Source of the DNA: an uncultured Alphaproteobacteria bacterium
GTDB lineage: Bacteria; Electryoneota; RPQS01
NCBI GenBank assembly: GCA_964370805.1
Contig: CAYJKM010000001.1
Location: 9,220-73,219 of the forward strand
Direction: 5' to 3'
DNA: 64,000 nucleotides
Position 1 is the first letter of the stretch, and each line of letters begins with the position of its first letter. Below are positions 4,521 through 47,654 of this stretch, piece by piece. Under the pieces are notes generated by a model. It was not told the DNA's origin and made no database searches. It saw nothing but the letters and a program-made list of their open reading frames with translations. The position numbers were made by a program, and so were the translations under genes.

Positions 4521-4692
4521 TGGATTTCGGGTGAGCACAGAATCTCCGCTGGTCATCAGTCTTATGACCGGCGCAGGCTCTGTGCGTGCCGCGCCCGACT
4601 GTCCGCCCCTAACTGACGCTGCTTCAAGTTTGTAGACGGGCGCGTCCATAAAACGTGCCGAGAGGAGACTCCGGCGCACCATCCGCATTATC

Positions 4693-4750
4693 AGAGCCTT
4701 CTGTCAGGAATGACCACGTGTCGTTTTCTGACGGAAGGCTCTATTGTTTT
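4693..4750 (+). terminator. 15-bp hairpin plus U-rich tail; intrinsic terminator or leader attenuator
   Basis: AGAGCCTTCTGTCAG (4693-4707) pairs with CTGACGGAAGGCTCT (4728-4742), with one G:U pair and a 20-nt loop, then ATTGTTTTCG. It lies 220 nt after the serA-like stop and 103 nt before the 4853 operon. Confidence 0.5.
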
Positions 4751-4852
4751 CGTGCAAAATGATGAAGGGAATGCAGAAAATGCGTTTCGGACGCCTGTAT
4801 CCTCTCGTCCAAATCTCGCTTTCGGTCAGACTTTGTCCTCTGGAGAAGGAAC

Positions 4853-5575
4853 ATGAAGTCCTCTTGCTACTTACTCGCGACAATCCTGTTGCTCATTGCG
4901 CTCGGCTGCCAGAACGACGACGAGACCACTCCGCCGCTATCCACACTTAGCATTTCGATCTCGATTGACCCTGATACCATCTGGTTCATCTATGGCCAAG
5001 CCGCTATCGCGGACGTGGTTATCTCAGTAACCGAGGACGGAGTTCCGGTCACGGGCGCAATCGTGACCTCGTCACTGGCCGAACCCTCCACCGGTCAGTT
5101 ATCCGGTTTTCGCGAGCGGACGGATACCACCGATGCCAGCGGTCAAATTCAGCTTCAATACTACTCGACGCTGACCGGCACCGATGTCATGACTTCAACT
5201 GCCGGCACCGCTTCGTTTACGACGGCCATCGTCGCCGCGCATCCGTACAACGGCGAGATGCTGTCCATCGACTTGTTTGTCAGCCCACCGGAATGGTATT
5301 TCCCGTACTATGGTGATACCGCTTCGATTGTCTGTGAAGCTGTCGTCTATGACGAGTCGGCGCAACCCGTCCCCCGCCTGAATCTCAACTTCTATTCGCA
5401 GCGCGGCCAGCTCAGCGACAACCCACTCACGGATGAATATGGCCGCACGGTTGCCATTCTGTCCGGCACGGTGGACGACATTTTTCCGGATCAACACACT
5501 CCGGAGATCACTTGCGAAGTGTTTGTCGAGATCAGCATGTTCAATGAGGCGCAATTGATTCTCTTCAGACGCTAA
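4853..5575 (+). CDS. lipoprotein L1 with two Ig-like (invasin/Big_1-like) domains
   Basis: GGAGAAGGA SD. Lipobox LLIALGC|QNDDE. Beta-sandwich style sequence VVISVTEDGVPVTGAIVTSSL...TDASGQIQLQYYS. First gene of the TP operon. Confidence 0.75.
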   Translation: MKSSCYLLATILLLIALGCQNDDETTPPLSTLSISISIDPDTIWFIYGQAAIADVVISVTEDGVPVTGAIVTSSLAEPSTGQLSGFRERTDTTDASGQIQLQYYSTLTGTDVMTSTAGTASFTTAIVAAHPYNGEMLSIDLFVSPPEWYFPYYGDTASIVCEAVVYDESAQPVPRLNLNFYSQRGQLSDNPLTDEYGRTVAILSGTVDDIFPDQHTPEITCEVFVEISMFNEAQLILFRR

Positions 5576-32661: not shown

Positions 32662-33666
32662 ATGCTGAAGCAACTCGTACTGATCCTCTTCAGTACCGCA
32701 CATTTCAGTCTGGCGCTCGTGACCGAGAATGAGCCGAACGACACGTTCGCGCAGGCCAATCCCGTGCAGTGCGGCGACACCGTTTTCTGCGCGCGCCTCG
32801 CCACTGTGACGGACGCCGACAACTTCCGCTTTTCCGCGATCGCGGGCGACTCACTCTATCTCACCACTTTTGCCTGCAGCGGCCTCACGAATACCTTCTT
32901 AGTACTCTACGATCAGCATGACTCCGTACTCGCCGTGAATGACAACGACGGCCCCAACGATTTTTCATCCATCCGCTGGGCCGTTACCGAGACCGCCGAG
33001 TACATCGCGCGAGTCATCTGCGGCGGCGCCGCGCCGGATTCCACTTACTCCCTCCACATCAACTGCCCGCATCCTGCCCCCGAGGATTACGACCTCTGCG
33101 AGACCGCGCGCACGATTCCTGCTCTACCTTATTACGATGAAGGCTCCACCAGCGGCGCGACGAATCAATTCGGCACGCTTGCGCCGGACGTGTTCTATCG
33201 CTTTGATAATCCCATTACCCGCAGCCTGCACGTCATTGTCTGTTCGGATCTCTTTGATGCCCGCGTACAGATGCTCGGCTACTGCATCGGTGGCGAAGGC
33301 GATGACGAATCGCAAGGCTGCAATCTCGGCGCTGATCTCTTCACGTTCAATCTCCCGCCCGGCCCGCACACGATTATGGTGGAAGGCACCGCCGCCAATC
33401 AGATCGGCGATTTCTCGCTCGAGATCACCGCTCAGCCCACCGAATGCCCCACGCCATTCCCCGTCGTGATTGCGCGCGTCGGCGGTTATCCGTTTCTGGA
33501 TTGGCCGCAGCTCGAAGGCCCCTCGTACTACATCGTCTGGCAATCGAGCACGATGAACAGCGAGTACGAACATCTCGGCACGACCGTCTTCACCTACTTC
33601 ACCGATTCCACCGGCTTCGTCACCCCCCGCCGCTTTTATTACGTCACCGCCGTCTGCCCGTGGTGA
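32662..33666 (+). CDS. secreted protein with pre-peptidase C-terminal (PPC)-like domain
   Basis: Signal peptide MLKQLVLILFSTAHFSLA. ENEPNDTFAQANPV...DADNFRFSAIAGDSLYL...YIARV is the collagenase-type PPC pattern. A possible promoter is TTGCCT, 17 nt spacer, TATATT at 32627-32655. Confidence 0.7.
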   Translation: MLKQLVLILFSTAHFSLALVTENEPNDTFAQANPVQCGDTVFCARLATVTDADNFRFSAIAGDSLYLTTFACSGLTNTFLVLYDQHDSVLAVNDNDGPNDFSSIRWAVTETAEYIARVICGGAAPDSTYSLHINCPHPAPEDYDLCETARTIPALPYYDEGSTSGATNQFGTLAPDVFYRFDNPITRSLHVIVCSDLFDARVQMLGYCIGGEGDDESQGCNLGADLFTFNLPPGPHTIMVEGTAANQIGDFSLEITAQPTECPTPFPVVIARVGGYPFLDWPQLEGPSYYIVWQSSTMNSEYEHLGTTVFTYFTDSTGFVTPRRFYYVTAVCPW

Positions 33667-33712: not shown

Positions 33713-33753
33713 CTCTGACTTGGATTTCGGATTTTGGATTTTCTTCCTTTTCC
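33713..33753 (+). repeat. heptamer-array element (HA family), copy c
   Basis: CTCTGACTTGGATTTCGGATTTTGGATTTTCTTCCTTTTCC. Confidence 0.75.
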
Positions 33754-33816: not shown

Positions 33817-33859
33817 CTCTAACTTGAATTTCGGGTTTCGAATTTCGAATTTCCTTTCC
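33817..33859 (+). repeat. heptamer-array element (HA family), copy d
   Basis: CTCTAACTTGAATTTCGGGTTTCGAATTTCGAATTTCCTTTCC. Confidence 0.75.
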
Positions 33860-33926
33860 GGGAGGCCGCAAGCCATGAACATCACGCGCTGCCTTCGCTT
33901 TTTCTCGTCCCTTTTCTTTTTCGATC

Positions 33927-33970
33927 ATTCGGACAGACCTTGCCCTCGGGTGAGGTCTGCGTTGTTTTTG
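33927..33970 (+). promoter_or_regulatory. conserved leader hairpin E1 (terminator-shaped)
   Basis: ATTCGGACAGACCTTGCCCTCGGGTGAGGTCTGCGTTGTTTTTG. An 11-12-bp stem plus U-tract ending 11 nt before ATG 33982. Near-identical to E2 at 47477-47520 (minus strand). Confidence 0.5.
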
Positions 33971-33981
33971 ACAATCGCGAT

Positions 33982-36951
33982 ATGAAGGTCTTAAGTCGTA
34001 TAGTCTTTGCGCTTTCTTCCCTTCTGCTACAGATCTCGGCGAGCAGAGCTGACACGACGTTTGTCTCTGGATCAATAGCGGGCATGTGGACGATAGACGG
34101 CGCTCCCTATGTGATAAATGGCGCAGCCTGGATATCTATCACAGATACACTGGCGATTTTAGAAGGTGTGGAAGTTATTCTGCCTGACGAGAATTCTGTT
34201 CTACGCATTGAAGGAACTTGCTTGGCTTTGGGAACGGATTTGGATAGCGTTTCCCTGCACCTTGACCATCCACAAGCACAGATTCGGTCGGGTCTTACAA
34301 ATCCTGGAAGAAAGCTGTGGCTGAGTTATATCCATGTTGATGGGAACGGTGAATGGAATACCGATATTGATTCGGTATTGATTAGGCATTCATCATTCAC
34401 ATTAGCGATGCAAGACGTCATGATCTTTTCGGGCTCTTTTATTCGCGTGGATTCGTGTACTATCCGCGCAATTCTCTTGATCAACGCTGACATGAATATT
34501 CTCTCGACTAAGATCGAAAACTATCTAGGCATGATCAACACAAGAAGTATAGTAGACCGTCTATGGGCACAGTCCGGTACTGGTGATCCAGCGGTCATTG
34601 CGTTCAATCCCTTGGCTGGCGATTCACTCATTCTAATGCGCAGCAGGATAGATGAGTTACACTTGTCCTACCAAATGGCCCCGTACTCGGCGGCCTGGAT
34701 CTCGCAGTGTGATATCACACGATTTGAAGCAGGCGAAGGTCAAAGAACATTCGTTGATTCGAGCCGCATCGCAGAATTCGACATTGAGGAAATGGGTGGA
34801 TACGTCATTCGCTGCATTGTCGGCAGAATGTTCATCCACTATGGGGCCCCGGGACTAGAGCCTGAATTGGATTTGCAAAACAACACTTTTATTTGGTCAC
34901 TTTGTTGTCTTGATTACGGTCCGTCTGCGTTTCTTTGGTACTCGAATGGTCTTGGAACGCGTCGCCAAGTGACCCTTAGAAACAACATCTTCTTTTCACC
35001 CAGATCGGAAGTCACGGTACTTTGTGAGGAGAATGACATTTTGATCGAGCCCCCAAGCTACAATATTGCATATGGTATGAGTACCCCGTGGCTTGATCAT
35101 GATTTGGGTCCCGGCAATCTGACCGAAAATCCTCTATTCGACCCCAATTCAGAGGCATTTGTACTACAGTATCCGTCCATGGCTATTAATGGTGGTGATC
35201 CGTCACTGGAAGACCCCGACGGATCGCGCCGTGACATTGGTGCGGCGTGGTGGGATCTAAGATATGATCATCCTCCAATTATTTCTACACCGAATAGAAT
35301 AGATCTTCGGTGGGGTGACAATTTCGAGTTATGGGCCACGGCTACGGATGATGGTCCGGTGGATGTCTATTGTCCACTGTCGAGTACATTGCCTGCATGG
35401 CTTGGATACAGCCGTGCTTTAGATAGCGACACGGCACTCCTTTTTGCAGGCAGAGTTCCGTTTGGCGCCGAATCAGTTACCGTTCCACTCATTGCTCTCG
35501 ACAGTCAGGGTCAAGCGGATTCTGAGTTAGTTCAGATCAACGTTTTTCCAAGTTCGATCCTTCCTGATACGATTGCTGGGCGTCTTGTTCCTGATTTTTC
35601 CCCATACTTGGCCACACATGACGTCATAATTCTACCGCCAGATTCTTTAACAATGTTGCCAGGCGTAACCATATCTTTTGACTCCGTTGACTGCATGCCT
35701 ACGCTGCTCGTTTATGGAATATTGAACTCACTTGGGTCAGCGAGCGACAGCGTATTCTTGAAATCTGCCAACGGATCCTTATGGCGAGGAATTTACGCTG
35801 AAGGACTTGCGGCACAATTGGACATGCGCTATACAGGAATCTCAGGAGCGTTGTATGGTGCCTACCTTCAAGAATGTACTAGCGCAACATTTTCACACTC
35901 ACGTATGTCGGCTATCAGCGAAAATTCATTAGTCGCTCGTGACCTTGCTGATAGTCTGATCATTCATCTCTGTGAATTCGATCAAAGCATAGGTGTCGTG
36001 AACACGAGATGCCTTATCGACTCTTCATGGACGCTGCCGACAAGCAATAGTAAAATCTCGCTTAGTGACGCCGTAGGTCTTATCAGCGAATGTCGGATCT
36101 ACGGAGGTGTGACGGTACGCGGAATGTCAGACGTGATAATCCAGCGGTGCCTGTTTCGTCCATCAGGGGATGCCGCATCCGTTGCCGTGTTGCCGGAGGT
36201 GCCAGGTGAACTGTGTGCCGCTCGCATTTATAATAATACTTTCTACGGCAATGAGCAGCCGAGCCGCTTCATTTGTTTATGTGCAGGATCTGTCCTCAAT
36301 ACACTTTCGGCTGAAATAGTGAATAATATATTCCATGGCTCGAACTACGCGATTCAGGTTAGTCAAGTCAGTAATGCAAGCCCAGTTCAAATTAGCAATA
36401 ACTGTATTTGGCAGTGTGACCAGTTCCTTTCGGATACAACGGGTCGTTGGTCGCCGTTTGGAGTAATGTTTGAAACCAATCTGAACGGAGATAGTACTGA
36501 CGTTTACGCCAATCTGATCGCTGATCCCTTGCTTATCGGTGATTCGCTTATTCCGGATCTTGCATCCCCCTGTATTGATGCTGGTATTGATGTTGGCCTC
36601 AGTTTTTGGGGTGCGGCACCAGATATTGGTTATATTGAGCAATCTTTGACAGATCTAAAAGACCCCTCAGGTTATGCCACGAAGGATGAATCTGTTGACG
36701 TCAATCTTGGAGTTTATCCTAATCCTGCCAATAATGGCTTCCGCATCAGCTTTCATGGATTCTCTGGACCAACATATTTGACATTATTTAACGTACTCGG
36801 GCAAGAAATTCTCGTTCGCGAATTTCGTTCCACTCCGTCTCTTCGGCAAACGTTTCTACTTAACGGCAGTCACTTGCCTTCTGGTCGTTACATCATTCGC
36901 GTGAGCGACAAGACCCACAGCACCTTCAAACAGATTACGCTCTTGCAGTAA
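33982..36951 (+). CDS. large (989 aa) beta-helix-like secreted protein with T9SS CTD, in a low-GC segment
   Basis: ORF 33940..36951. ATG 33982 gives signal peptide MKVLSRIVFALSSLLLQISASRA. Repetitive N/S/I-rich strands such as NNTFYGN, NNIFHGSNYAIQV and NNCIWQ resemble a right-handed beta-helix. CTD is VYPNPANNGFRISFHG...SGRYIIRV...KQITLLQ. Confidence 0.8.
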   Translation: MKVLSRIVFALSSLLLQISASRADTTFVSGSIAGMWTIDGAPYVINGAAWISITDTLAILEGVEVILPDENSVLRIEGTCLALGTDLDSVSLHLDHPQAQIRSGLTNPGRKLWLSYIHVDGNGEWNTDIDSVLIRHSSFTLAMQDVMIFSGSFIRVDSCTIRAILLINADMNILSTKIENYLGMINTRSIVDRLWAQSGTGDPAVIAFNPLAGDSLILMRSRIDELHLSYQMAPYSAAWISQCDITRFEAGEGQRTFVDSSRIAEFDIEEMGGYVIRCIVGRMFIHYGAPGLEPELDLQNNTFIWSLCCLDYGPSAFLWYSNGLGTRRQVTLRNNIFFSPRSEVTVLCEENDILIEPPSYNIAYGMSTPWLDHDLGPGNLTENPLFDPNSEAFVLQYPSMAINGGDPSLEDPDGSRRDIGAAWWDLRYDHPPIISTPNRIDLRWGDNFELWATATDDGPVDVYCPLSSTLPAWLGYSRALDSDTALLFAGRVPFGAESVTVPLIALDSQGQADSELVQINVFPSSILPDTIAGRLVPDFSPYLATHDVIILPPDSLTMLPGVTISFDSVDCMPTLLVYGILNSLGSASDSVFLKSANGSLWRGIYAEGLAAQLDMRYTGISGALYGAYLQECTSATFSHSRMSAISENSLVARDLADSLIIHLCEFDQSIGVVNTRCLIDSSWTLPTSNSKISLSDAVGLISECRIYGGVTVRGMSDVIIQRCLFRPSGDAASVAVLPEVPGELCAARIYNNTFYGNEQPSRFICLCAGSVLNTLSAEIVNNIFHGSNYAIQVSQVSNASPVQISNNCIWQCDQFLSDTTGRWSPFGVMFETNLNGDSTDVYANLIADPLLIGDSLIPDLASPCIDAGIDVGLSFWGAAPDIGYIEQSLTDLKDPSGYATKDESVDVNLGVYPNPANNGFRISFHGFSGPTYLTLFNVLGQEILVREFRSTPSLRQTFLLNGSHLPSGRYIIRVSDKTHSTFKQITLLQ

Positions 36952-40620: not shown

Positions 40621-42789
40621 CTATTTGACTAAGAGGATCTTTCGAGTTGCTGAGAACTTCTCTGCCGACAAGCAGAGAAAGTAGATTCCGGAGGGGAGAT
40701 TGTCGGCGTCGAAGTTGAGCGCATGATAACCCGGCTCGCGCCATCCCTCGCATAACGAGCGCACGTGCCTGCCGGTGACGTCAAAGAGCGTCAGGCTCAT
40801 GCGACTTGCGCGCGGCAGCGTGAACGAAATCGTGGTGGCGGAATTGAATGGATTGGGGTAGTTCTGATGCAGGATGAAAGCTTCCGGCGCGGGCACAGCA
40901 TCGTTGACACGCAGCAGCGAGTCCCCCGCAATCAGGACGTACGACGAGTGCGCGGAATAGTTGTCGAAGCCGTCCACTCCGGACAGGTAGAACACAATCG
41001 TGTCCCCCTCGAGATTGGCGCTGCCGTTGGCATGCGTATCGGGAAGCAGGAAGTAGTACTCGCCGGAGTACGTCTCCGGATCGGACCAGACATACGAGTA
41101 GCTCGGGGACGAATTCCAAATTGATTCATGACCGAACCAGAGCCAGTGAAGCTGCACCTGTCCCTGGTAATCCACTCCGTCATCGTCGGCATAGAACGCG
41201 CTGAGCACATAGGGGCCGAGCGATTCCGGCGACGTATACATCGTGACATCGCTGATGCGGGGCCCGGCATCGAAGACAGGAAGATGATCGGCAATCGCGT
41301 TCAGTTCGGCAATATCGGCGGCGCCAATCAAAGCCACCGTGAAATCCATGACCTCCCCCGGCGCCAGCACCAGATCCTGCGTCACCGCTCCCCAGCCCAT
41401 TAGCATGCGCCAATCCCCGTACGAATTGGATGCCGGGGAAATCTGGCCGGAAGAAATCAAATTGAATTTGTCCGCGTCCACAGGCGGATCGCCGCCGCTC
41501 ACTCGTTCGAAGTTGGCATAGGTGAATCGTGCGTCGTCCCAGGGGAAAGGCGGCTTGACGACCTTGACCGCGACCAGCCCCGGCCCCGAACCGTCACCAT
41601 CCGTGTTGTCGTCGCACATGACCATCATCCGCCGCTCCGGATCATAGTAGGTGGAGTCATCGAGGGACGCAGCATCGCCGCCTTCGCCTTCGGCTCCGAC
41701 GTCCGCATCCGCAAAGAAGGCGAGATGCACGTTTTCGAGCATCTGGGTGCCCGTGTTTCTCACTCTGAATTCAAGCAGCACGATGTTGCGGCCGAGGTCG
41801 CTGTCCCAAACATACGTAAGCTGATTGACGGTCACGCCGAGCGGATCGTGCGGGTCTTCCGGATCGGGGCTGCTTACCCATTGCGGCTGAATATCATCAT
41901 GATAGACGGCGCGGAATTCCTGCGGCGCGCGCGCGCCGGCGTCTTCGTCTTCGAGGCCATCGCCGTCGTCATCGAATGATTCGAGGCAGCAGTCGCCGTC
42001 ATGGTCGGGATCCAGAGCATCCACCAAGCCGTCATAATCGTTATCGAGAAAATCCGTCGCGATGTTTCCCGCCGGATCTTCATCGATGTGCGGTTCGGGA
42101 TCGTAACCCGCGTCGCCGTCACCGTTGATATCGCCATCCTGAGTGTCTTCATCGATCAAGCCGTCCGCATCGTTGTCGAGGTTATCGGCCGATTCCTCGT
42201 CAATCGTCCCGTCGTCATCGTCATCAAACGAGAGCAGGCCGCCGCCGCGATCGTAATTCTTCGAGGGCAGAAGATCGCCGTTGATGTCGTCGGTTTGAGG
42301 ATTCCAATCGCCGTCGTCATCCTGACCATAAACGCCGAGAACGTAATCATCGTCCTGATGGAATGCAAAGGCATTGGACTGGAACCACCAGTCATCGAAA
42401 TCCGGTATGGCATTTTCGGAGGGAATCGTTCCAATGTGAACCGGATAGAGCTCGTTGGTGCCGTTGTCGCCATCGGTGCCCGTGGAGACATTCGGTTGGC
42501 TATCCACCATGGCGCCAATCCAGATCCCGGCCGAAAAGAGAAAATCGTTGCCGCTGTTGATTGGAAATTCGAACCCCTTGTAGCCCGCCACACCGTTGGG
42601 ATTGCCATATTCACCCCAGTTACTGAGCGTGGTGCGGATGATGCCGACATCGTGTTGAACCAGCGACTTGACGGCATCGGGGTCTACGTCATCGAGCGGC
42701 GCCTGAGAGGGACGTGCCCAGACCGCGAAAGCGAGCAGTAATGCCGCGGCACGCAAGGCTGTTCGGAAGTGTAGATGTGTTGTATTCAT
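40621..42789 (-). CDS. secreted protein with thrombospondin-type-3-like Ca-binding Asp repeats and T9SS CTD
   Basis: ATG 42789 has AGGAA upstream; the ORF reaches a TTG at 42795. Signal peptide ...AALLLAFAVWARPSQA. Acidic repeats DNDADGLIDEDTQDGDINGDGD, DNDYDGLVDALDPDHDGD and DDDGDGLEDED. CTD is NYPNPFNSATTISFTL...SGIYFLCL...KILLVK. Confidence 0.85.
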   Translation of the reverse strand: MNTTHLHFRTALRAAALLLAFAVWARPSQAPLDDVDPDAVKSLVQHDVGIIRTTLSNWGEYGNPNGVAGYKGFEFPINSGNDFLFSAGIWIGAMVDSQPNVSTGTDGDNGTNELYPVHIGTIPSENAIPDFDDWWFQSNAFAFHQDDDYVLGVYGQDDDGDWNPQTDDINGDLLPSKNYDRGGGLLSFDDDDDGTIDEESADNLDNDADGLIDEDTQDGDINGDGDAGYDPEPHIDEDPAGNIATDFLDNDYDGLVDALDPDHDGDCCLESFDDDGDGLEDEDAGARAPQEFRAVYHDDIQPQWVSSPDPEDPHDPLGVTVNQLTYVWDSDLGRNIVLLEFRVRNTGTQMLENVHLAFFADADVGAEGEGGDAASLDDSTYYDPERRMMVMCDDNTDGDGSGPGLVAVKVVKPPFPWDDARFTYANFERVSGGDPPVDADKFNLISSGQISPASNSYGDWRMLMGWGAVTQDLVLAPGEVMDFTVALIGAADIAELNAIADHLPVFDAGPRISDVTMYTSPESLGPYVLSAFYADDDGVDYQGQVQLHWLWFGHESIWNSSPSYSYVWSDPETYSGEYYFLLPDTHANGSANLEGDTIVFYLSGVDGFDNYSAHSSYVLIAGDSLLRVNDAVPAPEAFILHQNYPNPFNSATTISFTLPRASRMSLTLFDVTGRHVRSLCEGWREPGYHALNFDADNLPSGIYFLCLSAEKFSATRKILLVK

Positions 42790-42809
42790 GATCAAGGTTC
42801 CTGCTTAGA

Positions 42810-44786
42810 TCACTTCATCAGAACCATTTTCCGCGTGGCAGAGATGGATCCGCAACGCAGGTGAACGAAGTAGATGCCGGAGGCAAGCGCCGACGCGTCG
42901 AATCGGACGTGATGAGCGCCGGCGGACAGCGGTTCATCCACGACAACGGCGATCTGGCGGCCCAGCACGTCGAACACGCTTAGATTCACCGGGCTTGTTT
43001 GCGGGATCGTGAAGGAAATTTCCGTGACGGAGTTGAACGGGTTCGGGTAATTTTGAGTGAGCTCGAAACTCAAATTCGCTGCAGGCCGCGACGGCGGTGC
43101 AGAAGTCGGCAAGAGCATCAGCGGAACCAGAGTGTCCATGAGTGCGCTGACTTGATCGAAGCGGCAAAAGTAGAGCGGCACGCCGAACACGGCCACGCGG
43201 AAGCCGAGATCGCAGATGTATGCCGCGGGACGGCCTTCAAGCGGGTTCTCGCCGGGATTGTTAACGGTGAGGCGGCCGATCACCGTCGCCTGGGCGCGCG
43301 GATCAAACGTCCATAACCGATCCATGGCCCCGTTCCAAGACGCGGGCAGTTTTGCCGAATCGATCTGACAGGTTGGGAAGCCATTATCACCCGAGAATCC
43401 GGTGGAGTGACGCGGAGCGACGCTGGGATCACGACGTCCAGAGACAGCACAGAGATCACGAAATCCAAAATCAGTGGAATCAAACTCCAGAGAATCGCCG
43501 GACCAACCCAGTGATCCGAAAACGTCCCAGCCCGAGAGGATCAGGCGGCCGCCGCGACTCAGGTATTCATCGAGGACGCGAGTATTGTTATCAAGCATCA
43601 GTTCCGCTTTGTCGTCGGCATGCCAAATGACCATACCGGCGTTCCGGAGGGTGTATGGTGAGACGAATTGGAAAACCGTGTAGTCGTGGTCTCGGTAGTG
43701 ATAGTCAACAAGCACTTCATGATAGAAAGAGTCAGCCTGCGCGTCGTTCGGTACGCCGGGCCCGCCCGGCCCATTACGGGTTTCGTCCACAATGACCAGA
43801 GTATCGGTAAGGGCGAATGCAACGACATGAATGCTCATCGGCCGGATATCTGTGGACACTCCGGCGATATCGCGGGCCATGACTTGAAGCGGATAATCGC
43901 CGGGCGGAATGTCTGCGAAGTTCAGTTCGGGATCAGGGAACCAATCACTCCAGTTTCCCTCTGCATCCCGACAGCGATACGCGTTGATTTCGCCGCGATA
44001 AGGGCTGGCATCAGCATGAAGCGTGAGCGCCATTGCTGCGCCGGAGACAAAGTAAGCGGAGCGATCCGGGTAGATTTCTTCTCCGGCATAGACGCCGGTG
44101 ACGGTTGAGTCCATGATGGGCACGCGATCGGCAAGCACATTGAGCGTACGGCTGATGACTGGGCTGAGTACCTGCCGTGAATCAATGGCACGAAAGTAGA
44201 GCGTGTTCCATTCCAACGTCAACGCGCTGTTTGAAATCAATGTCACATCCTGAGGAAAGAGCCCAAGGGAAGTGTCACAAATCAAAAAGGCCGGAAACGC
44301 CGACCAGTCAGACCACTGGTTGGAATCGTTGACGGCAATGGAGAAGTAGGTCAGGTCTTGATCTTCATCGGACGGGGCGACTGTCATGCGAAAGCCGAAG
44401 CCGACATTCGCGTTGTCGGGCACGCTTCCCGCCGGATCAAAGTCAATGTTCGGCGGCGTACCATAAGGGATCACGGTGACGCTGCCGGACATTTCCGGGA
44501 AATGAACTGCACAATAGTAGGGATAGACGCCCAGCGGCAGAGTGAAGACGTATGCATAGCTCCACGGAGGAGGCGCCGGTTCGCCGCTGGTGAAGTGCGG
44601 CGGCGTGCTCTGCTCCACAACATTGTGCGTGCCGTCAAGATTCGTCCAGACGACGGTATCGCCGTACGCGACGACAAGACTTTCGGGCGCGAAAAAGTTG
44701 CTGCCAAGATAGACTTGCCAGACCGTAGCCGCCGCGGGCGTAAGCAGCGCAAGTGTAATGAGCGACGTCAAGATGAGGCGAAGCAT
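42810..44786 (-). CDS. secreted cupredoxin-domain fusion protein with T9SS CTD
   Basis: AAGGAG SD before ATG 44786. Signal peptide MLRLILTSLITLALLTPAAA. N-terminal plastocyanin-like domain carries candidate type-1 Cu ligands H (DGTHNV) and C, H, M (YYCAVHFPEM). A large unknown middle region follows. CTD is NYPNPFNSVTEISFTI...SGIYFVHL...KMVLMK. Confidence 0.8.
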   Translation of the reverse strand: MLRLILTSLITLALLTPAAATVWQVYLGSNFFAPESLVVAYGDTVVWTNLDGTHNVVEQSTPPHFTSGEPAPPPWSYAYVFTLPLGVYPYYCAVHFPEMSGSVTVIPYGTPPNIDFDPAGSVPDNANVGFGFRMTVAPSDEDQDLTYFSIAVNDSNQWSDWSAFPAFLICDTSLGLFPQDVTLISNSALTLEWNTLYFRAIDSRQVLSPVISRTLNVLADRVPIMDSTVTGVYAGEEIYPDRSAYFVSGAAMALTLHADASPYRGEINAYRCRDAEGNWSDWFPDPELNFADIPPGDYPLQVMARDIAGVSTDIRPMSIHVVAFALTDTLVIVDETRNGPGGPGVPNDAQADSFYHEVLVDYHYRDHDYTVFQFVSPYTLRNAGMVIWHADDKAELMLDNNTRVLDEYLSRGGRLILSGWDVFGSLGWSGDSLEFDSTDFGFRDLCAVSGRRDPSVAPRHSTGFSGDNGFPTCQIDSAKLPASWNGAMDRLWTFDPRAQATVIGRLTVNNPGENPLEGRPAAYICDLGFRVAVFGVPLYFCRFDQVSALMDTLVPLMLLPTSAPPSRPAANLSFELTQNYPNPFNSVTEISFTIPQTSPVNLSVFDVLGRQIAVVVDEPLSAGAHHVRFDASALASGIYFVHLRCGSISATRKMVLMK

Positions 44787-44825
44787 GGTTGCTCCTTGCA
44801 AAAGAAATTCGTCGTTTAGAAGGGA

Positions 44826-44866
44826 GCCGACACGGTGTCGGCTTGTCGACTGAAAGTCGACCCTAC
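44826..44866 (-). repeat. GTAGGG-prefixed double hairpin (REP-B family)
   Basis: Minus strand reads GTAGGG-TCGAC-TTTCA-GTCGA-CAA-GCCGACAC-CG-GTGTCGGC. The TAG of GTAGGG is the stop codon of CDS 44863..47451. Confidence 0.65.
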
Positions 44867-47451
44867 TTCATCAACACGATCTTCCGGGTTGCCGCATAAT
44901 CGCCGGCGGACATGCGGATGAAGTAAATGCCCGACGGCAAAGCGCGGGCGTCGAGCGCGAGCGCATGATAACCCGGTTTGCGCCAATCATCGTACAGCGT
45001 GCGCACGTGCCGGCCGTTCACGTCAAAGAGCGTCAGGCTCATGCGACTTGCGCGCGGCAGCGCAAACGAAATGGTGGTGGCTGGATTGAACGGATTAGGA
45101 TAATTCTGAGCGAGGGTGAATGCCGCGGGGAGCTGCGGATGGTCTGTCGCCGCGTCAGGGAAGCACGAAAACTGAAACGTGTCCGAGGCCCAGGTGCCGG
45201 GAGTGTTGTTATCGGTCGCGCGAACCGTCCAAGAATACGTCACGTACGGCGCCGTAACAAAGAGCACCGTATCGGCGATGCTGTCGGCAACTTGCCATGC
45301 CGTGCTGAGATCTTCGGTCGTGTCCATCCAGACGTCGTAATGCACCGGCTGGAACAAGTCAACATCGAATGACCGGTGCCAGGACACATCCATGCCGCCA
45401 CAATCGAAAATGGAATCACCGTCGGCGGGAAAGATCAGCGTGAAGGGTGTGGGTGGCGTGGCGTAGCCGTGGCCTTCGACGGCCACAGTGAGCAGCGGTT
45501 CATCGGGATCATTACTCGTGATGGTCAGGATTCCCGTGTGCCCGTTTGTATCGGGAGGAGTGTAAAGCACCAGCGTGCTGATGCTGTCGCCGGGAGCGAT
45601 CCAGTAACCTGCGGGGAAGGGCCAATTGACGTCGAAGATGTTGGTGTCGGAGACGACATCGTCAATCAGCAAGTGCCCGGTACCGGCATTCCGGATCTGC
45701 AACCACCATGGCCCGGAAGCGCCGACCGGCCAACCCGTGAAGTCATGAACGGTGTCCGGCAGGAAAACGTCACCGGGCGGGACATCCGCCGTGAGCGACA
45801 AACGGGAGAGCGAGTCGAAGCCGAACGTGCCGTCGCCGATCGAGAATGCCGGAGTAGCTGAAAGTTCCTCTGTATTGAGCATTGACCAGACGCGAAAGCG
45901 CATCGTGTCGCCGGGCGCGAAGCCGGGCAGGCTTTGCGCAGAATCGACCTGCCAACAAGTCACGGTGACCGGCCAGGTCCCAAAGAAGGCCGCCGCGCCA
46001 ACGCACGTGGAATCATCAAAGACGGCGATCTCGTCCGGCACTCTGAATTCATAGTACTCCCAGTGCACGGAATCGACGAATACCGGATAGGAAATCAGAG
46101 TCGGATCGACCGGCACGAAATGTTCTGTTTGGGCGCTCAAGAGATGTCCGGCGGTGATGACGTACGCCACGCCGTTACTTCCGCCGACCACTTCATTGTT
46201 GCCTAATGAGCCAACCTCAATGCTATCGGAGAGAAAGTTCCAGCGGGAGCTGAAGTCGATCCACGTGATGCCGCCATCGAGCGTACGCGAGGTCATCAAG
46301 CTTTCCGGAGTGAACGTTCCCCAGACATTGTGCATCCCGATGCCGTGCAGAGCATCCCAGAAATACGCCTGATTCATGTAAACGAGCGGGCCGATGTCAT
46401 TGAAAGGCCGGGACAGAATCACCATGGTATCCGGGTCGGTCCACCCGCCGCCGCCATAACCGAACTCATCATACGCGTACCACGCCCAGTGATAATCGCC
46501 GAAATTGGGGACTCCCCGGTTGCTGATGACAAACGGAGTGTGATCTGCGGCACGCAGCGCGATCGAAGGATAGCGTTGGGCATAGGTGATGGTCTCAAAC
46601 GAGAAATTTTGACCATGATTGGTCGAAGTGCCGACGCGCACACCGGTGAGATCACTATTGCGAAAACAAATCACCAAAGCATCAACCGCGGGATCGTAGG
46701 CAATCGGCTTGCAGTTGCCGCGGTAATAGCTAACTTCACTTCCGGCCATTTCGGGAAGGGCATTGATGATTCCGGCGCCGCCGGGAGTGGTGGGAAAGCG
46801 CAGCACAAACTGGCTGTAGAAGTTGTCCTGAAACAGCACGAAACACCAGTCTTCGTCATTCAGGTCGGAGATATGCGGGTAGAAGTTAACCCAATTGGGA
46901 GCATTGGGTGTGGCAATGATCCACGGAGTACTCCATGTCGCGCCATTGTCGACGGATTTCGCGCACCAGAAGCGGGCCAGAGACTGCGTGTCCATCCCCG
47001 GAACAATGACGAAGAGATCGCCGTTAGGCGTGCGGCCGATATCGGTCCAACCTCCCTGTGCCGCAATGCCAACAAACTCATTGTTGCCTTCGGGAATCGC
47101 AAGCACCGGCTGAAAATTCGGGCCGGGGAGAGCGTAGATGCCCGGAATCGCGGCCGTCTCGAGATAGACCGAGTAACAGAGCTCGTTGTTGTCCATCACG
47201 CAGGCGCTGAAATCTGCCAGCGGATCCGTGGTCGGAGCGAATTCAGAGAGATCTCCGGCGCGGGTTAGCTCGCTCCACGTCGCACCGTAGTCCGTAGTTT
47301 TGATATAGAGCAGATTGGTGCAAGCGTCATCGAGATGTCCGGACGGCCGAGGGTGACGCACAAGATCGCGTTCATCATCGGCCCTGACCAGGCCTGCACA
47401 GAAAAGTATGATCGCCACGCTGAACGCCGCCCACAGTGTCTTCTGACTCAT
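44863..47451 (-). CDS. large secreted BNR/Asp-box (sialidase-like beta-propeller) protein with Ig-like modules and T9SS CTD
   Basis: GGAGG SD before ATG 47451. Signal peptide MSQKTLWAAFSVAIILFCAGLVRA. Asp-box-like motifs TTDYGATWS, SVDNGATWS, STNHGQNFS and TLDGGITWI. CTD is NYPNPFNPATTISFAL...SGIYFIRM...KIVLMK. Confidence 0.8.
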   Translation of the reverse strand: MSQKTLWAAFSVAIILFCAGLVRADDERDLVRHPRPSGHLDDACTNLLYIKTTDYGATWSELTRAGDLSEFAPTTDPLADFSACVMDNNELCYSVYLETAAIPGIYALPGPNFQPVLAIPEGNNEFVGIAAQGGWTDIGRTPNGDLFVIVPGMDTQSLARFWCAKSVDNGATWSTPWIIATPNAPNWVNFYPHISDLNDEDWCFVLFQDNFYSQFVLRFPTTPGGAGIINALPEMAGSEVSYYRGNCKPIAYDPAVDALVICFRNSDLTGVRVGTSTNHGQNFSFETITYAQRYPSIALRAADHTPFVISNRGVPNFGDYHWAWYAYDEFGYGGGGWTDPDTMVILSRPFNDIGPLVYMNQAYFWDALHGIGMHNVWGTFTPESLMTSRTLDGGITWIDFSSRWNFLSDSIEVGSLGNNEVVGGSNGVAYVITAGHLLSAQTEHFVPVDPTLISYPVFVDSVHWEYYEFRVPDEIAVFDDSTCVGAAAFFGTWPVTVTCWQVDSAQSLPGFAPGDTMRFRVWSMLNTEELSATPAFSIGDGTFGFDSLSRLSLTADVPPGDVFLPDTVHDFTGWPVGASGPWWLQIRNAGTGHLLIDDVVSDTNIFDVNWPFPAGYWIAPGDSISTLVLYTPPDTNGHTGILTITSNDPDEPLLTVAVEGHGYATPPTPFTLIFPADGDSIFDCGGMDVSWHRSFDVDLFQPVHYDVWMDTTEDLSTAWQVADSIADTVLFVTAPYVTYSWTVRATDNNTPGTWASDTFQFSCFPDAATDHPQLPAAFTLAQNYPNPFNPATTISFALPRASRMSLTLFDVNGRHVRTLYDDWRKPGYHALALDARALPSGIYFIRMSAGDYAATRKIVLMK

Positions 47452-47476
47452 GGCTGCCTCCGGGCTGAATTGACCG

Positions 47477-47520
47477 CTAAAACAAGACAGACCTCGCCGA
47501 AGGGCAAGGTCTGTTCGAAT
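47477..47520 (-). promoter_or_regulatory. conserved leader hairpin E2 (terminator-shaped)
   Basis: Minus strand reads ATTCGAACAGACCTTGCCCTTCGGCGAGGTCTGTCTTGTTTTAG. It ends 25 nt before ATG 47451. Homologous to E1. Confidence 0.5.
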
Positions 47521-47626
47521 TGCAGAAGAGAGGAATGGTTGCTTTTGCGGCAAGACTGCTGCCGCCGGCCGAATGCGCTCACGGTAATTCTACCTATGTA
47601 TAGGTCGGCCATACCGACAATATGTG

Positions 47627-47654
47627 AATGTACGCACAAATTTGGAAAAGTCAA
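47627..47654 (-). promoter_or_regulatory. candidate sigma70-type promoter for CDS 44863..47451
   Basis: Minus strand reads TTGACT, 16 nt spacer, TACATT. This implies a leader of about 170 nt that contains E2. Confidence 0.35.

What the first reader, a model, noticed from the sequence alone, without database searches (positions are those of the whole stretch)
33927..33970. Conserved terminator-shaped leader hairpin (E1/E2) in front of two large T9SS cargo genes
E1 (33927-33970, +) is ATTCGGACAGACCTTGCCCTCGGGTGAGGTCTGCGTTGTTTTTG. E2 (47520-47477, -) is ATTCGAACAGACCTTGCCCTTCGGCGAGGTCTGTCTTGTTTTAG. Both form 11-12-bp stems with a U-tract. They end 11 nt and 25 nt upstream of the start codons of the 989-aa beta-helix protein and the 862-aa BNR protein. 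E2 lies in a divergent intergenic region, downstream of a good promoter candidate (47627-47654). It therefore cannot be the terminator of an upstream gene and would stop transcription in the leader unless overridden. A third hairpin with a different stem but the same ATTGTTTT tail (4693-4750) precedes the TP operon. This suggests antitermination-type control of surface-protein loci. NusG-paralog (UpxY/LoaP-type) control of long surface-polysaccharide operons is a conceptual analogue.
Basis: partly seen in the sequence, partly recalled or inferred. Interest (0 to 1): 0.6.

Follow-up and report, generated by a model that had tools for sequence, protein, structure and literature searches.

The report
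Translated leader hairpin before T9SS cargo
A conserved, terminator-shaped RNA hairpin sits in short translated leaders, just after their own promoters, in front of genes for type IX-secreted surface proteins in one uncultured bacterial family; it probably lets these genes be expressed only when ribosomes read the leader.

Summary
E1 and E2 are at the stated coordinates, fold into 11-12-bp stems with U-rich tails, and end 11 and 25 nt before the cargo start codons.

The element is a real family. A third copy lies on another contig of this genome, and there are 19 good copies in all: four related genera plus two metagenome contigs. It was found in no other genus among 79 genomes of the phylum, and it matches no Rfam family.

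All copies are sense-oriented and 5' of a gene. 12 of 13 independent loci precede Por_Secre_tail (T9SS) cargo genes, against 5.4% of all genes. 13-14 copies lie 79-138 nt after a strict TTGACA-N17-TAnnnT promoter.

The stem core ACCUUGC/GYGAGGU and one U·G wobble never vary.

The leader is not non-coding. A conserved Shine-Dalgarno plus start codon about 60 nt upstream opens a small ORF that runs into or through the hairpin. In several copies this ORF is fused to the cargo ORF.

Best reading (confidence 0.45): an intrinsic terminator inside a translated leader, overridden by the translating ribosome, as in pyrBI. NusG-paralog control is not supported, since relatives have one NusG each. No transcript data could be obtained.

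The parts
33824..33852 (+). Weak promoter-like TTGAAT-N17-GAATTT. It overlaps a tandem heptamer repeat (GAATTTC)n upstream of the E1 leader.
   Evidence: Matched by my relaxed regex, but not called by the consensus scan. The heptamer repeat recurs at 10 or more other intergenic sites. This is the least certain part.
33860..33865 (+). Shine-Dalgarno GGGAGG of the E1 upstream ORF.
   Evidence: Lies 9 nt before ATG 33875. The same GGGAGGCCG-N3-6-RTG island is conserved in E3, L081, L086 and G001a.
33875..33985 (+). E1 upstream ORF of 36 codons (MNITRCLRFFSSLFFFDHSDRPCPRVRSALFLTIAI*). It runs through the hairpin, and its TGA overlaps the cargo ATG (ATGA).
   Evidence: No Pfam match. The cargo ATG has no SD of its own.
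33934..33959 (+). E1 stem-loop: 11 bp, loop CUCG, with U·G and G·U wobbles that pair only on this strand.
33960..33970 (+). E1 U-rich tail CGTTGTTTTTG.
33982..36951 (+). 989-aa beta-helix T9SS cargo gene downstream of E1. Its composition looks foreign (GC 47%, GC3 45%).
   Evidence: Pfam Por_Secre_tail 37.5 bits; composition.
47627..47654 (-). Sigma-70-type promoter TTGACT-16-TACATT of the E2 leader.
   Evidence: The strict form of this motif occurs only 189 times in the genome.
47448..47612 (-). E2 upstream ORF: 54 codons from ATG 47612, or 44 from GTG 47582 (the latter matches G001b's GAATACC-GTG-AGCG start). It runs through the hairpin, and its TGA (47450-47448) overlaps the cargo ATG (47451-47449).
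47487..47514 (-). E2 stem-loop: 12 bp, with a C(UUCG)G loop.
47477..47486 (-). E2 U-rich tail CTTGTTTTAG.
44863..47451 (-). 862-aa BNR-type T9SS cargo gene downstream of E2, with its own SD GGAGG.
   Evidence: Pfam Por_Secre_tail 37.4 bits.
40621..44801 (-). Two further T9SS cargo genes on the same strand behind the E2 gene (42810-44801 and 40621-42795).
   Evidence: Por_Secre_tail at 41.5 and 36.5 bits.
4692..4750 (+). It is NOT a member of the E family.
   Evidence: Different stem; no hit with R1 or R2; folded.

Best explanation
E is an intrinsic-terminator-type RNA hairpin built into a short translated leader of T9SS cargo mRNAs.

Proposed sequence of events:
1. A sigma-70-type promoter fires about 80-140 nt upstream of the stem.
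2. The transcript carries a Shine-Dalgarno sequence and a start codon about 60 nt before the stem.
3. The ORF opened there (about 20-55 codons) runs up to, into or through the hairpin. It ends at or near the cargo start codon, or is fused in frame to the cargo ORF.
4. If no ribosome follows RNA polymerase closely, the 11-12-bp stem plus U-tract forms and transcription stops. The stem also buries the GAGGU/UUG initiation signals that some copies use.
5. If a ribosome translating the leader ORF is close behind, it occupies or melts the stem. Polymerase then reads on and the cargo is translated, by coupling where the stop and start codons overlap.

This is the pyrBI (pyrL) logic: translation-coupled attenuation without an antiterminator helix.

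Shown here:
- the hairpin and its strand-specific conservation;
- its leader position behind promoters;
- the conserved SD-start island;
- its association with cargo genes.

Inferred, not shown:
- that it terminates transcription;
- that the ribosome overrides it;
- what physiological signal sets the degree of coupling.
For: - Shape: E1 and E2 match the genome's 69 bona fide 3' terminators (median dG -18.7 kcal/mol, stem 11 bp, loop 4 nt), yet sit in leaders. 18 of 19 copies keep a U-rich tail although its sequence and reading frame differ.
- RNA-level, sense-strand element: 96.8% of cells pair, the U·G wobble is present in 16/16, and G·U alternates with G-C at the next pair. There is a compensatory G-C to C-G change in G002. 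Antisense hits score about 23 bits against 60-69 for sense.
- Promoters: the strict promoter motif lies 79-138 nt upstream in 13-14 of 19 copies, with 0.0036 expected per copy.
- Translated leader: an SD-like motif lies 5-9 nt before ATG/GTG, at -57 to -67 from the stem, in 8-9 copies.
- Phylogenetic footprint: E3 and its metagenomic orthologue L086 share exactly three conserved islands, namely promoter, SD plus start, and hairpin.
- Start-codon constraints: in G001a and G002b-d the cargo ORF has no start codon downstream of the tail. In G002f the only one (a GTG) leaves a 9-residue presequence, too short for a signal peptide. The E1 and L086 cargo ATGs have no SD and overlap the leader ORF stop as ATGA.
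- Nucleotide-level selection: the leader ORF reads the stem in three different frames, so selection acts on the nucleotides.
- No alternative helix: no conserved antiterminator pairing appears in leader folds.
- Literature: ribosomes suppress intrinsic terminators lying in or a few nt after an ORF. Terminators in the first ~100 nt of an ORF work unless polymerase pausing lets the ribosome catch up (PMC4824070). pyrL works this way (PMC5021804).
Against: - No transcript or ribosome data.
- GC3 of the leader ORFs is 0.57 against about 0.72 in genes, so they are not codon-optimised.
- SD motifs are absent before the upstream ATG in G002a-d, G004 and G012.
- The ATGA overlaps are partly a geometric consequence of cargo proteins starting MK/MR/MS, so they are weak evidence on their own (my reasoning).
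- E3 keeps a perfect stem but has lost the U-tract, so the stem may have a role apart from termination.
- The invariance of a 7+7-nt core across genera is more than a terminator needs.
- The E1 promoter is weak.
- No U-rich pause element or regulatory codon run is shared by the copies.
Confidence: 0.45

Rival explanations
1. Translation-only switch. The hairpin does not terminate transcription. It sequesters an initiation region: the SD-like GAGGU in the 3' arm followed 5 nt later by UUG-UUU. It may also act as a barrier that only ribosomes coming from the upstream ORF can open, so cargo translation depends on translational coupling. On this view the 'U-tract' is just Leu/Phe codons of the signal-peptide region.
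For: GAGGT-N5-TTG-TTT is present in 10 of 19 copies from three genera. In G001a and G002b-d this TTG is in frame with the cargo ORF and is the only start near the signal peptide, for example MFSAIRTTVILVLFVSHIGYAQ|W. The invariant core equals an SD (GAGGU) paired with an anti-SD-like ACCUU. E3 keeps the stem without a U-tract. U-rich stretches do occur inside ordinary signal-peptide coding here, for example at C32:6669.
Against: In E2, E3, G001b, G001c, G003 and G012 the cargo has its own SD and ATG well downstream of the stem and not sequestered by it. U-richness of the tail is kept in copies where it is not in the cargo frame and has no TTG (G001b/c CCUUUUUC, L086 CUUAUUUUUG). That fits a terminator better than a codon constraint.
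Confidence: 0.2
2. Factor-dependent antitermination or regulon control. A dedicated trans-acting RNA-binding protein or small RNA recognises the invariant stem core and decides between termination and read-through, or controls mRNA stability, for a small set of cargo genes.
For: Six stem pairs and the U·G wobble never vary across four genera, while loop length varies from 4 to 12 nt. Copies within one genome share lineage-specific variants: all G002 copies have CACACC/GGTGTG and the same loop, and G004 and G012 share an extended loop. This is the pattern expected if sites co-evolve with one partner.
Against: No candidate factor was found. G001, G002 and G003 have one NusG each, so there is no LoaP/UpxY/RfaH-type paralog. 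The loops are not ANTAR-type hexaloops, and there is only one hairpin, not two. There is no Rfam family. The only other conserved leader element is an SD plus start codon. The concerted pattern can also come from short-patch gene conversion.
Confidence: 0.15
3. No dedicated regulation. The hairpin is a short palindromic repeat or ordinary terminator module that spreads by recombination among the repetitive 5' ends of cargo genes. It would serve at most as an insulator against read-through from upstream genes.
For: Only about 45-50 nt are shared between copies whose flanks and downstream proteins are unrelated. E1 precedes a gene of foreign composition. Homologues of the E2 gene in other genera lack the hairpin. 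Copy number is low and the element is confined to four genera. E1 is the only terminator-like site after the upstream gene 32662-33666.
Against: All 19 copies are sense-oriented, 5' of a gene and behind a promoter. None lies at a gene's 3' end or in the opposite orientation. 12 of 13 independent loci are cargo genes against 5.4% expected. An insulator placed downstream of the gene's own promoter would silence the gene. E1 lies 267 nt after the upstream stop, whereas 3' terminators here lie 19-62 nt after it.
Confidence: 0.12
4. Coding conservation only. The shared sequence is an N-terminal extension or signal-peptide segment conserved at the protein level.
For: In G002b-d and f, G001a, G004 and G012 the frame is open from an upstream ATG/GTG through the hairpin into the cargo ORF. 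In G002 the hairpin encodes (N/D)TLL(R/L)xAARC(V/F)LF just before the hydrophobic core.
Against: The hairpin is read in three different frames in different copies (RPCPRVRS, TLPxGEV, DLALG*). In E1, E2, E3, G001b, G001c, G003, L081 and L086 a stop separates it from a cargo ORF that has its own complete signal peptide. The apparent lack of a start in G004 may be a 1-nt assembly frameshift (sequence).
Confidence: 0.03

Closest known systems
pyrBI (pyrL) attenuator of Escherichia coli, and the related pyrE attenuator
   Same: A promoter-proximal leader ORF extends through an intrinsic terminator. No antiterminator helix is needed, because a ribosome close behind RNA polymerase physically prevents the terminator hairpin (Roland et al. 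1988 as cited in PMC5021804; PMC4824070). Here too the leader ORF starts about 60 nt before the stem, covers it, and ends near the structural gene.
   Different: There is no sequence or Rfam relation. The targets are secreted T9SS cargo genes, not pyrimidine genes. No shared U-rich pause region was shown, so there is no evidence for UTP sensing. The same hairpin sequence is reused at several unrelated genes per genome. In some copies the leader ORF is fused to the structural gene.
Classical leader-peptide attenuators (trpL, hisL, leuL, pheL, thrL)
   Same: A short translated leader upstream of a terminator, with ribosome position deciding read-through.
   Different: There are no runs of regulatory codons, and the peptide is not conserved. 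There is no conserved alternative antiterminator pairing. The ORF spans the terminator instead of ending before it.
NusG-paralog processive antitermination (LoaP, UpxY, RfaH)
   Different: No NusG paralog: one NGN domain per complete relative. The targets are single genes or short runs, not long polysaccharide operons. No ops-like or LoaP-type leader RNA was found.
uORF-opened SD-sequestering hairpins (secM-secA, ermC-type leaders); comparison from my own knowledge
   Same: An upstream ORF is translated through or into a stem that hides a downstream initiation region. The 3' arm here carries GAGGU followed by UUG.
   Different: There is no conserved arrest peptide, since frames and sequences differ. 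Many copies have an unsequestered SD for the cargo. A U-tract follows the stem.
REP/BIME-type palindromic repeats and small MITE-like hairpins
   Same: A short imperfect palindrome is repeated at several intergenic places, with lineage-specific variants shared within a genome.
   Different: There are only 1-6 copies per genome. Every copy has one orientation relative to the downstream gene and lies behind a promoter. None lies at a 3' end.

Membership tests
Intrinsic (Rho-independent) terminator | G+C-rich stem of about 7-14 bp, a short loop, and a U-rich tract directly 3' of the stem | tested here: met
   E1: 11 bp, loop 4, 7 U in the 9 nt from +2. E2: 12 bp, loop 4, 6 U in the first 9 nt. 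The genome's own 3' terminators have the same parameters. 18 of 19 copies have the U-rich tail; E3 does not.
Intrinsic (Rho-independent) terminator | Transcripts actually end in the U-tract | not testable with these tools
There are no Term-seq or RNA-seq data.
pyrBI-type translation-coupled attenuator | A leader ORF with its own ribosome-binding site downstream of the promoter | tested here: met
   GGGAGG/GGAG(A) lies 5-9 nt before ATG/GTG in E1, E3, L081, L086, G001a, G001b and G003 (weak in E2). It is conserved as a footprint between E3 and L086. It is not evident in G002a-d, G004 or G012.
pyrBI-type translation-coupled attenuator | The leader ORF overlaps or abuts the terminator, so that a ribosome can occlude it | tested here: met
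   The ORF spans the stem in E1, E2, E3, L081, L086, G001a, G001d and the G002 copies. It stops inside the 3' arm in G001b and G001c, and 3 nt before the stem in G003. Some of this would be expected by chance, because the stem has no stop codon in 2-3 frames.
pyrBI-type translation-coupled attenuator | Nucleotide-sensitive pause sites that set the coupling, and a response to UTP | not tested
   E1 has a pyrimidine-rich run before the stem, but nothing comparable is shared by all copies.
Classical amino-acid leader-peptide attenuator | A run of regulatory codons in the leader peptide, and mutually exclusive antiterminator and terminator helices | tested here: not met
   The peptides are unrelated and have no codon runs. 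The terminator hairpin is an isolated local helix in all leader folds, with no conserved alternative.
NusG-paralog (LoaP/UpxY/RfaH) antitermination | A specialised NusG paralog encoded in the genome | tested here: not met
   PF02357 gives exactly one match each in G001 (100% complete), G002 and G003. There is none in the 66%-complete G000.
Known structured RNA family (riboswitch, leader, sRNA) in Rfam 15 | A match to a curated covariance model | tested here: not met
   No gathering-score hit in the window. Over 13 loci at E<=1 there were only two unrelated weak hits elsewhere in the loci.
REP/MITE-type selfish palindromic repeat | Many copies, both orientations, mostly 3' of or between genes, and an associated RAYT or transposase | tested here: not met
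   There are 1-6 copies per genome, all sense and 5' of a gene behind a promoter. The presence of a RAYT was not tested.
Arrest-peptide monitors (SecM, MifM, VemP type) | A conserved arrest motif in the upstream peptide | tested here: not met
   Leader peptides share no motif and read the hairpin in three frames. They have no Pfam match.

The most novel reading that the evidence does not exclude
The hairpin may be the operator of a lineage-specific post-transcriptional regulon. A portable roughly 50-nt cassette would be recognised through its invariant ACCUUGC/GYGAGGU core and conserved U·G wobble by a dedicated, still unknown RNA-binding protein or small RNA. Recombination would graft the cassette onto unrelated T9SS cargo genes, including horizontally acquired ones such as the E1 gene. 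This would give coordinated control of a changing set of surface proteins. The translated leader would then be the read-out device rather than the sensor.
Probability: 0.15. Interest if true: 0.75.

Novelty: new variant of a known kind. Interest (0 to 1): 0.5.

Why it matters
Very little is known about how the hundreds of T9SS cargo genes of FCB-group bacteria are regulated individually. Known control (PorXY/SigP in Porphyromonas, from my own knowledge) acts on the secretion machinery.

This finding gives a defined, testable cis-element that marks a small subset of cargo genes in an uncultured family. It consists of a promoter, a conserved start of a small ORF, and an invariant hairpin.

If the ribosome-override model holds, it extends pyrBI-type coupling control from nucleotide metabolism to secreted surface proteins. 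It would also show a regulatory cassette being reused on unrelated genes.

For annotation it matters too. In several relatives the true start of the cargo protein lies in or upstream of a hairpin that gene callers and terminator finders would treat as intergenic.

Tried and rejected
- Rfam: no family at gathering score or at E<=1.
- Exact-pattern scans: genome contigs gave only the contigs of G001 and G003 plus about 7 chance hits in unrelated phyla. Metagenome contigs gave 2 true copies and 5 chance hits in low-GC contigs.
- Orthology test: homologues of the E2 BNR gene in ten other genomes (nine leaders examined) have long leaders, some with other terminator-like hairpins, but not E. The element therefore does not travel with that gene.
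- Protein-level conservation: rejected, because three reading frames are used.
- ATGA stop/start overlaps: I first took these as strong evidence for coupling, then downgraded them. Cargo proteins starting MK/MR/MS create ATGA automatically, and the unrelated 4692-4750 leader shows the same overlap.
- The G004 'no start codon' case: probably a 1-nt frameshift (ATGG), so it was not used as evidence.
- Programmed frameshifting: a CTTTTTC run lies 9-10 nt before the stem in E1 and E3, but it is absent from the other copies.
- Integron attC site: the hairpin is too short and has no GTTRRRY ends.
- Weak CM hits (L036-L040, L009, L012): these are ordinary 3' terminators with unrelated stems.
- L052 (G001e): has a perfect ACCTCGC/GCGAGGT stem upstream of a MarR-like gene. 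I left it out as uncertain.
- Antiterminator search by folding leaders: nothing conserved was found.

Full report
**1.

E1 (33927-33970, +) and E2 (47520-47477, -) read exactly as quoted.
- E1 folds into an 11-bp stem and E2 into a 12-bp stem, each with a 4-nt loop.
- dG is -19.7 and -21.8 kcal/mol, and none of 200 shuffles folds as well.
- The consensus scan calls both terminator-like.
- The core pattern occurs only at these two sites in the window, against 0.02 expected.
- The start codons are at 33982 and 47451, which are 11 and 25 nt after the elements.
- The promoter candidate at 47654-47627 is found by the tool.
- Both downstream genes, and two more behind the E2 gene, carry the T9SS C-terminal domain.

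The hairpin at 4692-4750 exists but has an unrelated stem. It is not matched by either covariance model.

**2. It is a family, and a narrow one.**

The window is C1:9220-73219 of a 1.56-Mb, 66%-complete MAG.

- A third copy, E3, lies at C24:16253-16296. Its stem-loop is identical to E1's, but it has no U-tract. It is about 125 nt before another cargo gene.
- Covariance models built from the copies find 3 copies in G000, 4 in G001 (same genus), 6 in G002, and 1 each in G003, G004 and G012.
- Exact-pattern scans add two metagenome contigs, L081 and L086. Otherwise they give only chance hits in unrelated organisms.
- Among 79 genomes (55 genera) of the phylum, only 6 genomes of 4 genera in one family have it.
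- Weaker hits are ordinary 3' terminators with other stems.
- No Rfam family matches.

**3. It is an RNA-level, sense-strand element with an invariant core.**

On 16 aligned copies, 96.8% of cells pair.
- Six pairs never vary (ACCUU.C / G.GAGGU).
- A U·G wobble is present in 16 of 16 copies, and the next pair alternates between G·U and G-C.
- One pair is G-C in most copies but C-G in all G002 copies.
- Loop length ranges from 4 to 12 nt.
- The wobbles would be A·C mismatches on the other strand, and antisense hits score about 23 bits against 60-69 for sense.

True covariation is thin, amounting to one or two events. The support comes from maintained pairing and strand asymmetry.

Copies within one genome share lineage-specific variants. 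This points to concerted evolution, or to co-evolution with a partner.

**4. Position.**

Every copy is in the sense orientation and 5' of a gene.
- A strict promoter motif (TTGAC[AT]-N16-18-[TG]AnnnT) occurs only 189 times in the whole genome on both strands. It lies 79-138 nt before the stem in 13-14 of 19 copies, with 0.0036 expected per copy.
- E1's promoter is the weak exception.
- Downstream proteins belong to at least six unrelated families.
- 12 of 13 independent loci carry Por_Secre_tail. The exception is G003; G004 scores below the cut-off and G002b's domain is degenerate. The background is 70 of 1304 genes, or 5.4%.

A census of 356 hairpin-plus-U candidates in this genome shows that most lie after same-strand genes. 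The 69 clear 3' terminators lie a median of 26 nt after the stop codon and have the same stem, loop and energy as E1 and E2. E therefore looks like a working terminator placed in a leader.

**5. The leader is translated: the main revision.**

Between promoter and stem there is a second conserved island, an SD followed by a start codon:
- E1: GGGAGG-9-ATG (33860 and 33875).
- E3: GGGAGG-5-GTG-ATG.
- L081: GGGAGG-6-GTG.
- L086: GGAGG-5-GTG-ATG.
- G001a: GGAAG-6-GTG.
- G001b and G003: GGAGA-5-GTG.
- E2: a weaker AGGTAGA-N6-GTG, or an ATG close to the start of transcription.

This start sits 57-67 nt before the stem in nine copies.

E3 and its metagenomic orthologue L086 align in exactly three islands: promoter, SD plus start, and hairpin. 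The ORF body and the tail have diverged, and E3 has lost the U-tract through an 8-nt indel.

The ORF opened there ends in different places in different copies:
- It runs through the stem in most copies.
- It ends in ATGA on the cargo start in E1, E2 and L086.
- It ends directly before the cargo start in L081.
- It ends inside the 3' arm in G001b and G001c.
- It ends 3 nt before the stem in G003.
- It is fused in frame to the cargo ORF in G001a, G002b-d and f, G004 and G012.

In G001a and G002b-d the cargo ORF has no start codon after the tail. In G002f only a GTG remains, which would leave a 9-residue presequence. Ribosomes must therefore initiate in or upstream of the hairpin.

The ORF reads the stem in three different frames, so the conservation is at the nucleotide level.

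Caveats:
- GC3 of the leader ORFs is not gene-like.
- Some copies lack an SD.
- The stop/start overlaps are partly geometric.
- G004's missing start may be an assembly frameshift.

**6. Mechanism.**

The simplest model that fits all copies is a terminator inside a translated leader. If the first ribosome is close behind RNA polymerase, it covers or melts the stem and transcription continues. If not, the stem and U-tract stop it.

This is the pyrL/pyrBI principle (PMC5021804). Experiments in E. coli show three relevant things (PMC4824070):
- Ribosomes repress terminators placed in an ORF or within a few nt after it.
- Terminators within the first ~100 nt of an ORF function unless pausing lets the ribosome catch up.
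- A stop codon 5 nt before a terminator lowers termination from about 90% to under 10%.

Leader folds show no conserved antiterminator helix, as the direct-occlusion model expects.

The GAGGU of the 3' arm, followed 5 nt later by UUG-UUU in ten copies, may add a translational layer. The stem hides an initiation site that is the cargo start in G001a and G002b-d. I cannot tell what signal modulates the coupling.

**7. Rivals.**
- A purely translational switch (0.2).
- A dedicated trans-acting factor that recognises the invariant core (0.15). The NusG-paralog version is contradicted, with one NusG per complete relative.
- A non-regulatory repeat or insulator (0.12). The uniform orientation, the promoters and the cargo association argue against it.
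- Protein-level conservation (0.03), rejected by the frame analysis.

**8. Novelty and verdict.**

The kind of mechanism is known. The element, its link to T9SS cargo genes, its reuse on unrelated genes and its fusion into presequences are, as far as Rfam 15 and the papers searched show, undescribed.

No transcript-level evidence could be obtained, so function remains inferred.

Noticed in passing
window 33824-33854; about 54880-54898 (-); also C8:32836, C25:16404, C29:9658 and 19941, C39:15325, C47:2708, C51:10993, C52:6725, C62:6888 of the genome: A short tandem heptamer repeat, (GAATTTC)3-4, is usually preceded by CTGACT. It recurs in at least 10 short intergenic gaps in both orientations, often right after a stop codon. 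One copy sits just before the E1 leader's SD. A related GGATTT(C/T)GGATTT repeat lies at 33722-33743 and at 5 other sites. Its function is unknown.
   Followed up: partly
window 33982-36951: The E1 cargo gene has GC 47% and GC3 45%, against about 58% and 65-75% for its neighbours. A codon-usage gene caller trained on this genome misses it. It is probably horizontally acquired, yet it carries the family's leader cassette.
   Followed up: partly
G000 C24:16165-16419 (locus L048) and metagenome locus L086: E3 is the orthologue of L086, with a near-identical promoter, SD-start and hairpin. E3 lacks the U-tract because of an 8-nt indel, and its leader ORF ends 86 nt before the cargo ATG. It may be a derepressed or decaying copy.
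   Followed up: partly
window 4692-4856: The unrelated long hairpin before the tandem cargo operon has an ORF (ATG 4710, 48 codons) that starts in its loop and ends in ATGA on the operon's first ATG (4853). There is no convincing SD, so this may be chance.
   Followed up: partly
loci L062 (G014) and L063 (G005), upstream of BNR cargo homologues: Homologues of the E2 gene in other genera have 200-300-nt leaders behind TTGACA promoters. Some of these contain terminator-like hairpins with quite different stems. Leader terminators before cargo genes may therefore be a wider habit of this family.
   Followed up: no
G002:C16:503842-506050 (locus L074): Two hairpin-led units lie 2.1 kb apart in tandem. 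The second (G002e) is followed by a 73-codon ORF and no cargo gene for about 270 nt, so it looks degenerate.
   Followed up: no
G001:C3:85993-86049 (locus L052): A hairpin with a perfect ACCTCGC/GCGAGGT stem (no wobble) lies 115 nt before a MarR-like regulator gene and a secreted YceI-like gene. It is either a distant member of the family or a coincidence.
   Followed up: partly
genome-wide (G000): 77 Por_Secre_tail matches occur in a 1.56-Mb, 66%-complete MAG. That is about 5% of all genes, an unusually high cargo load.
   Followed up: no
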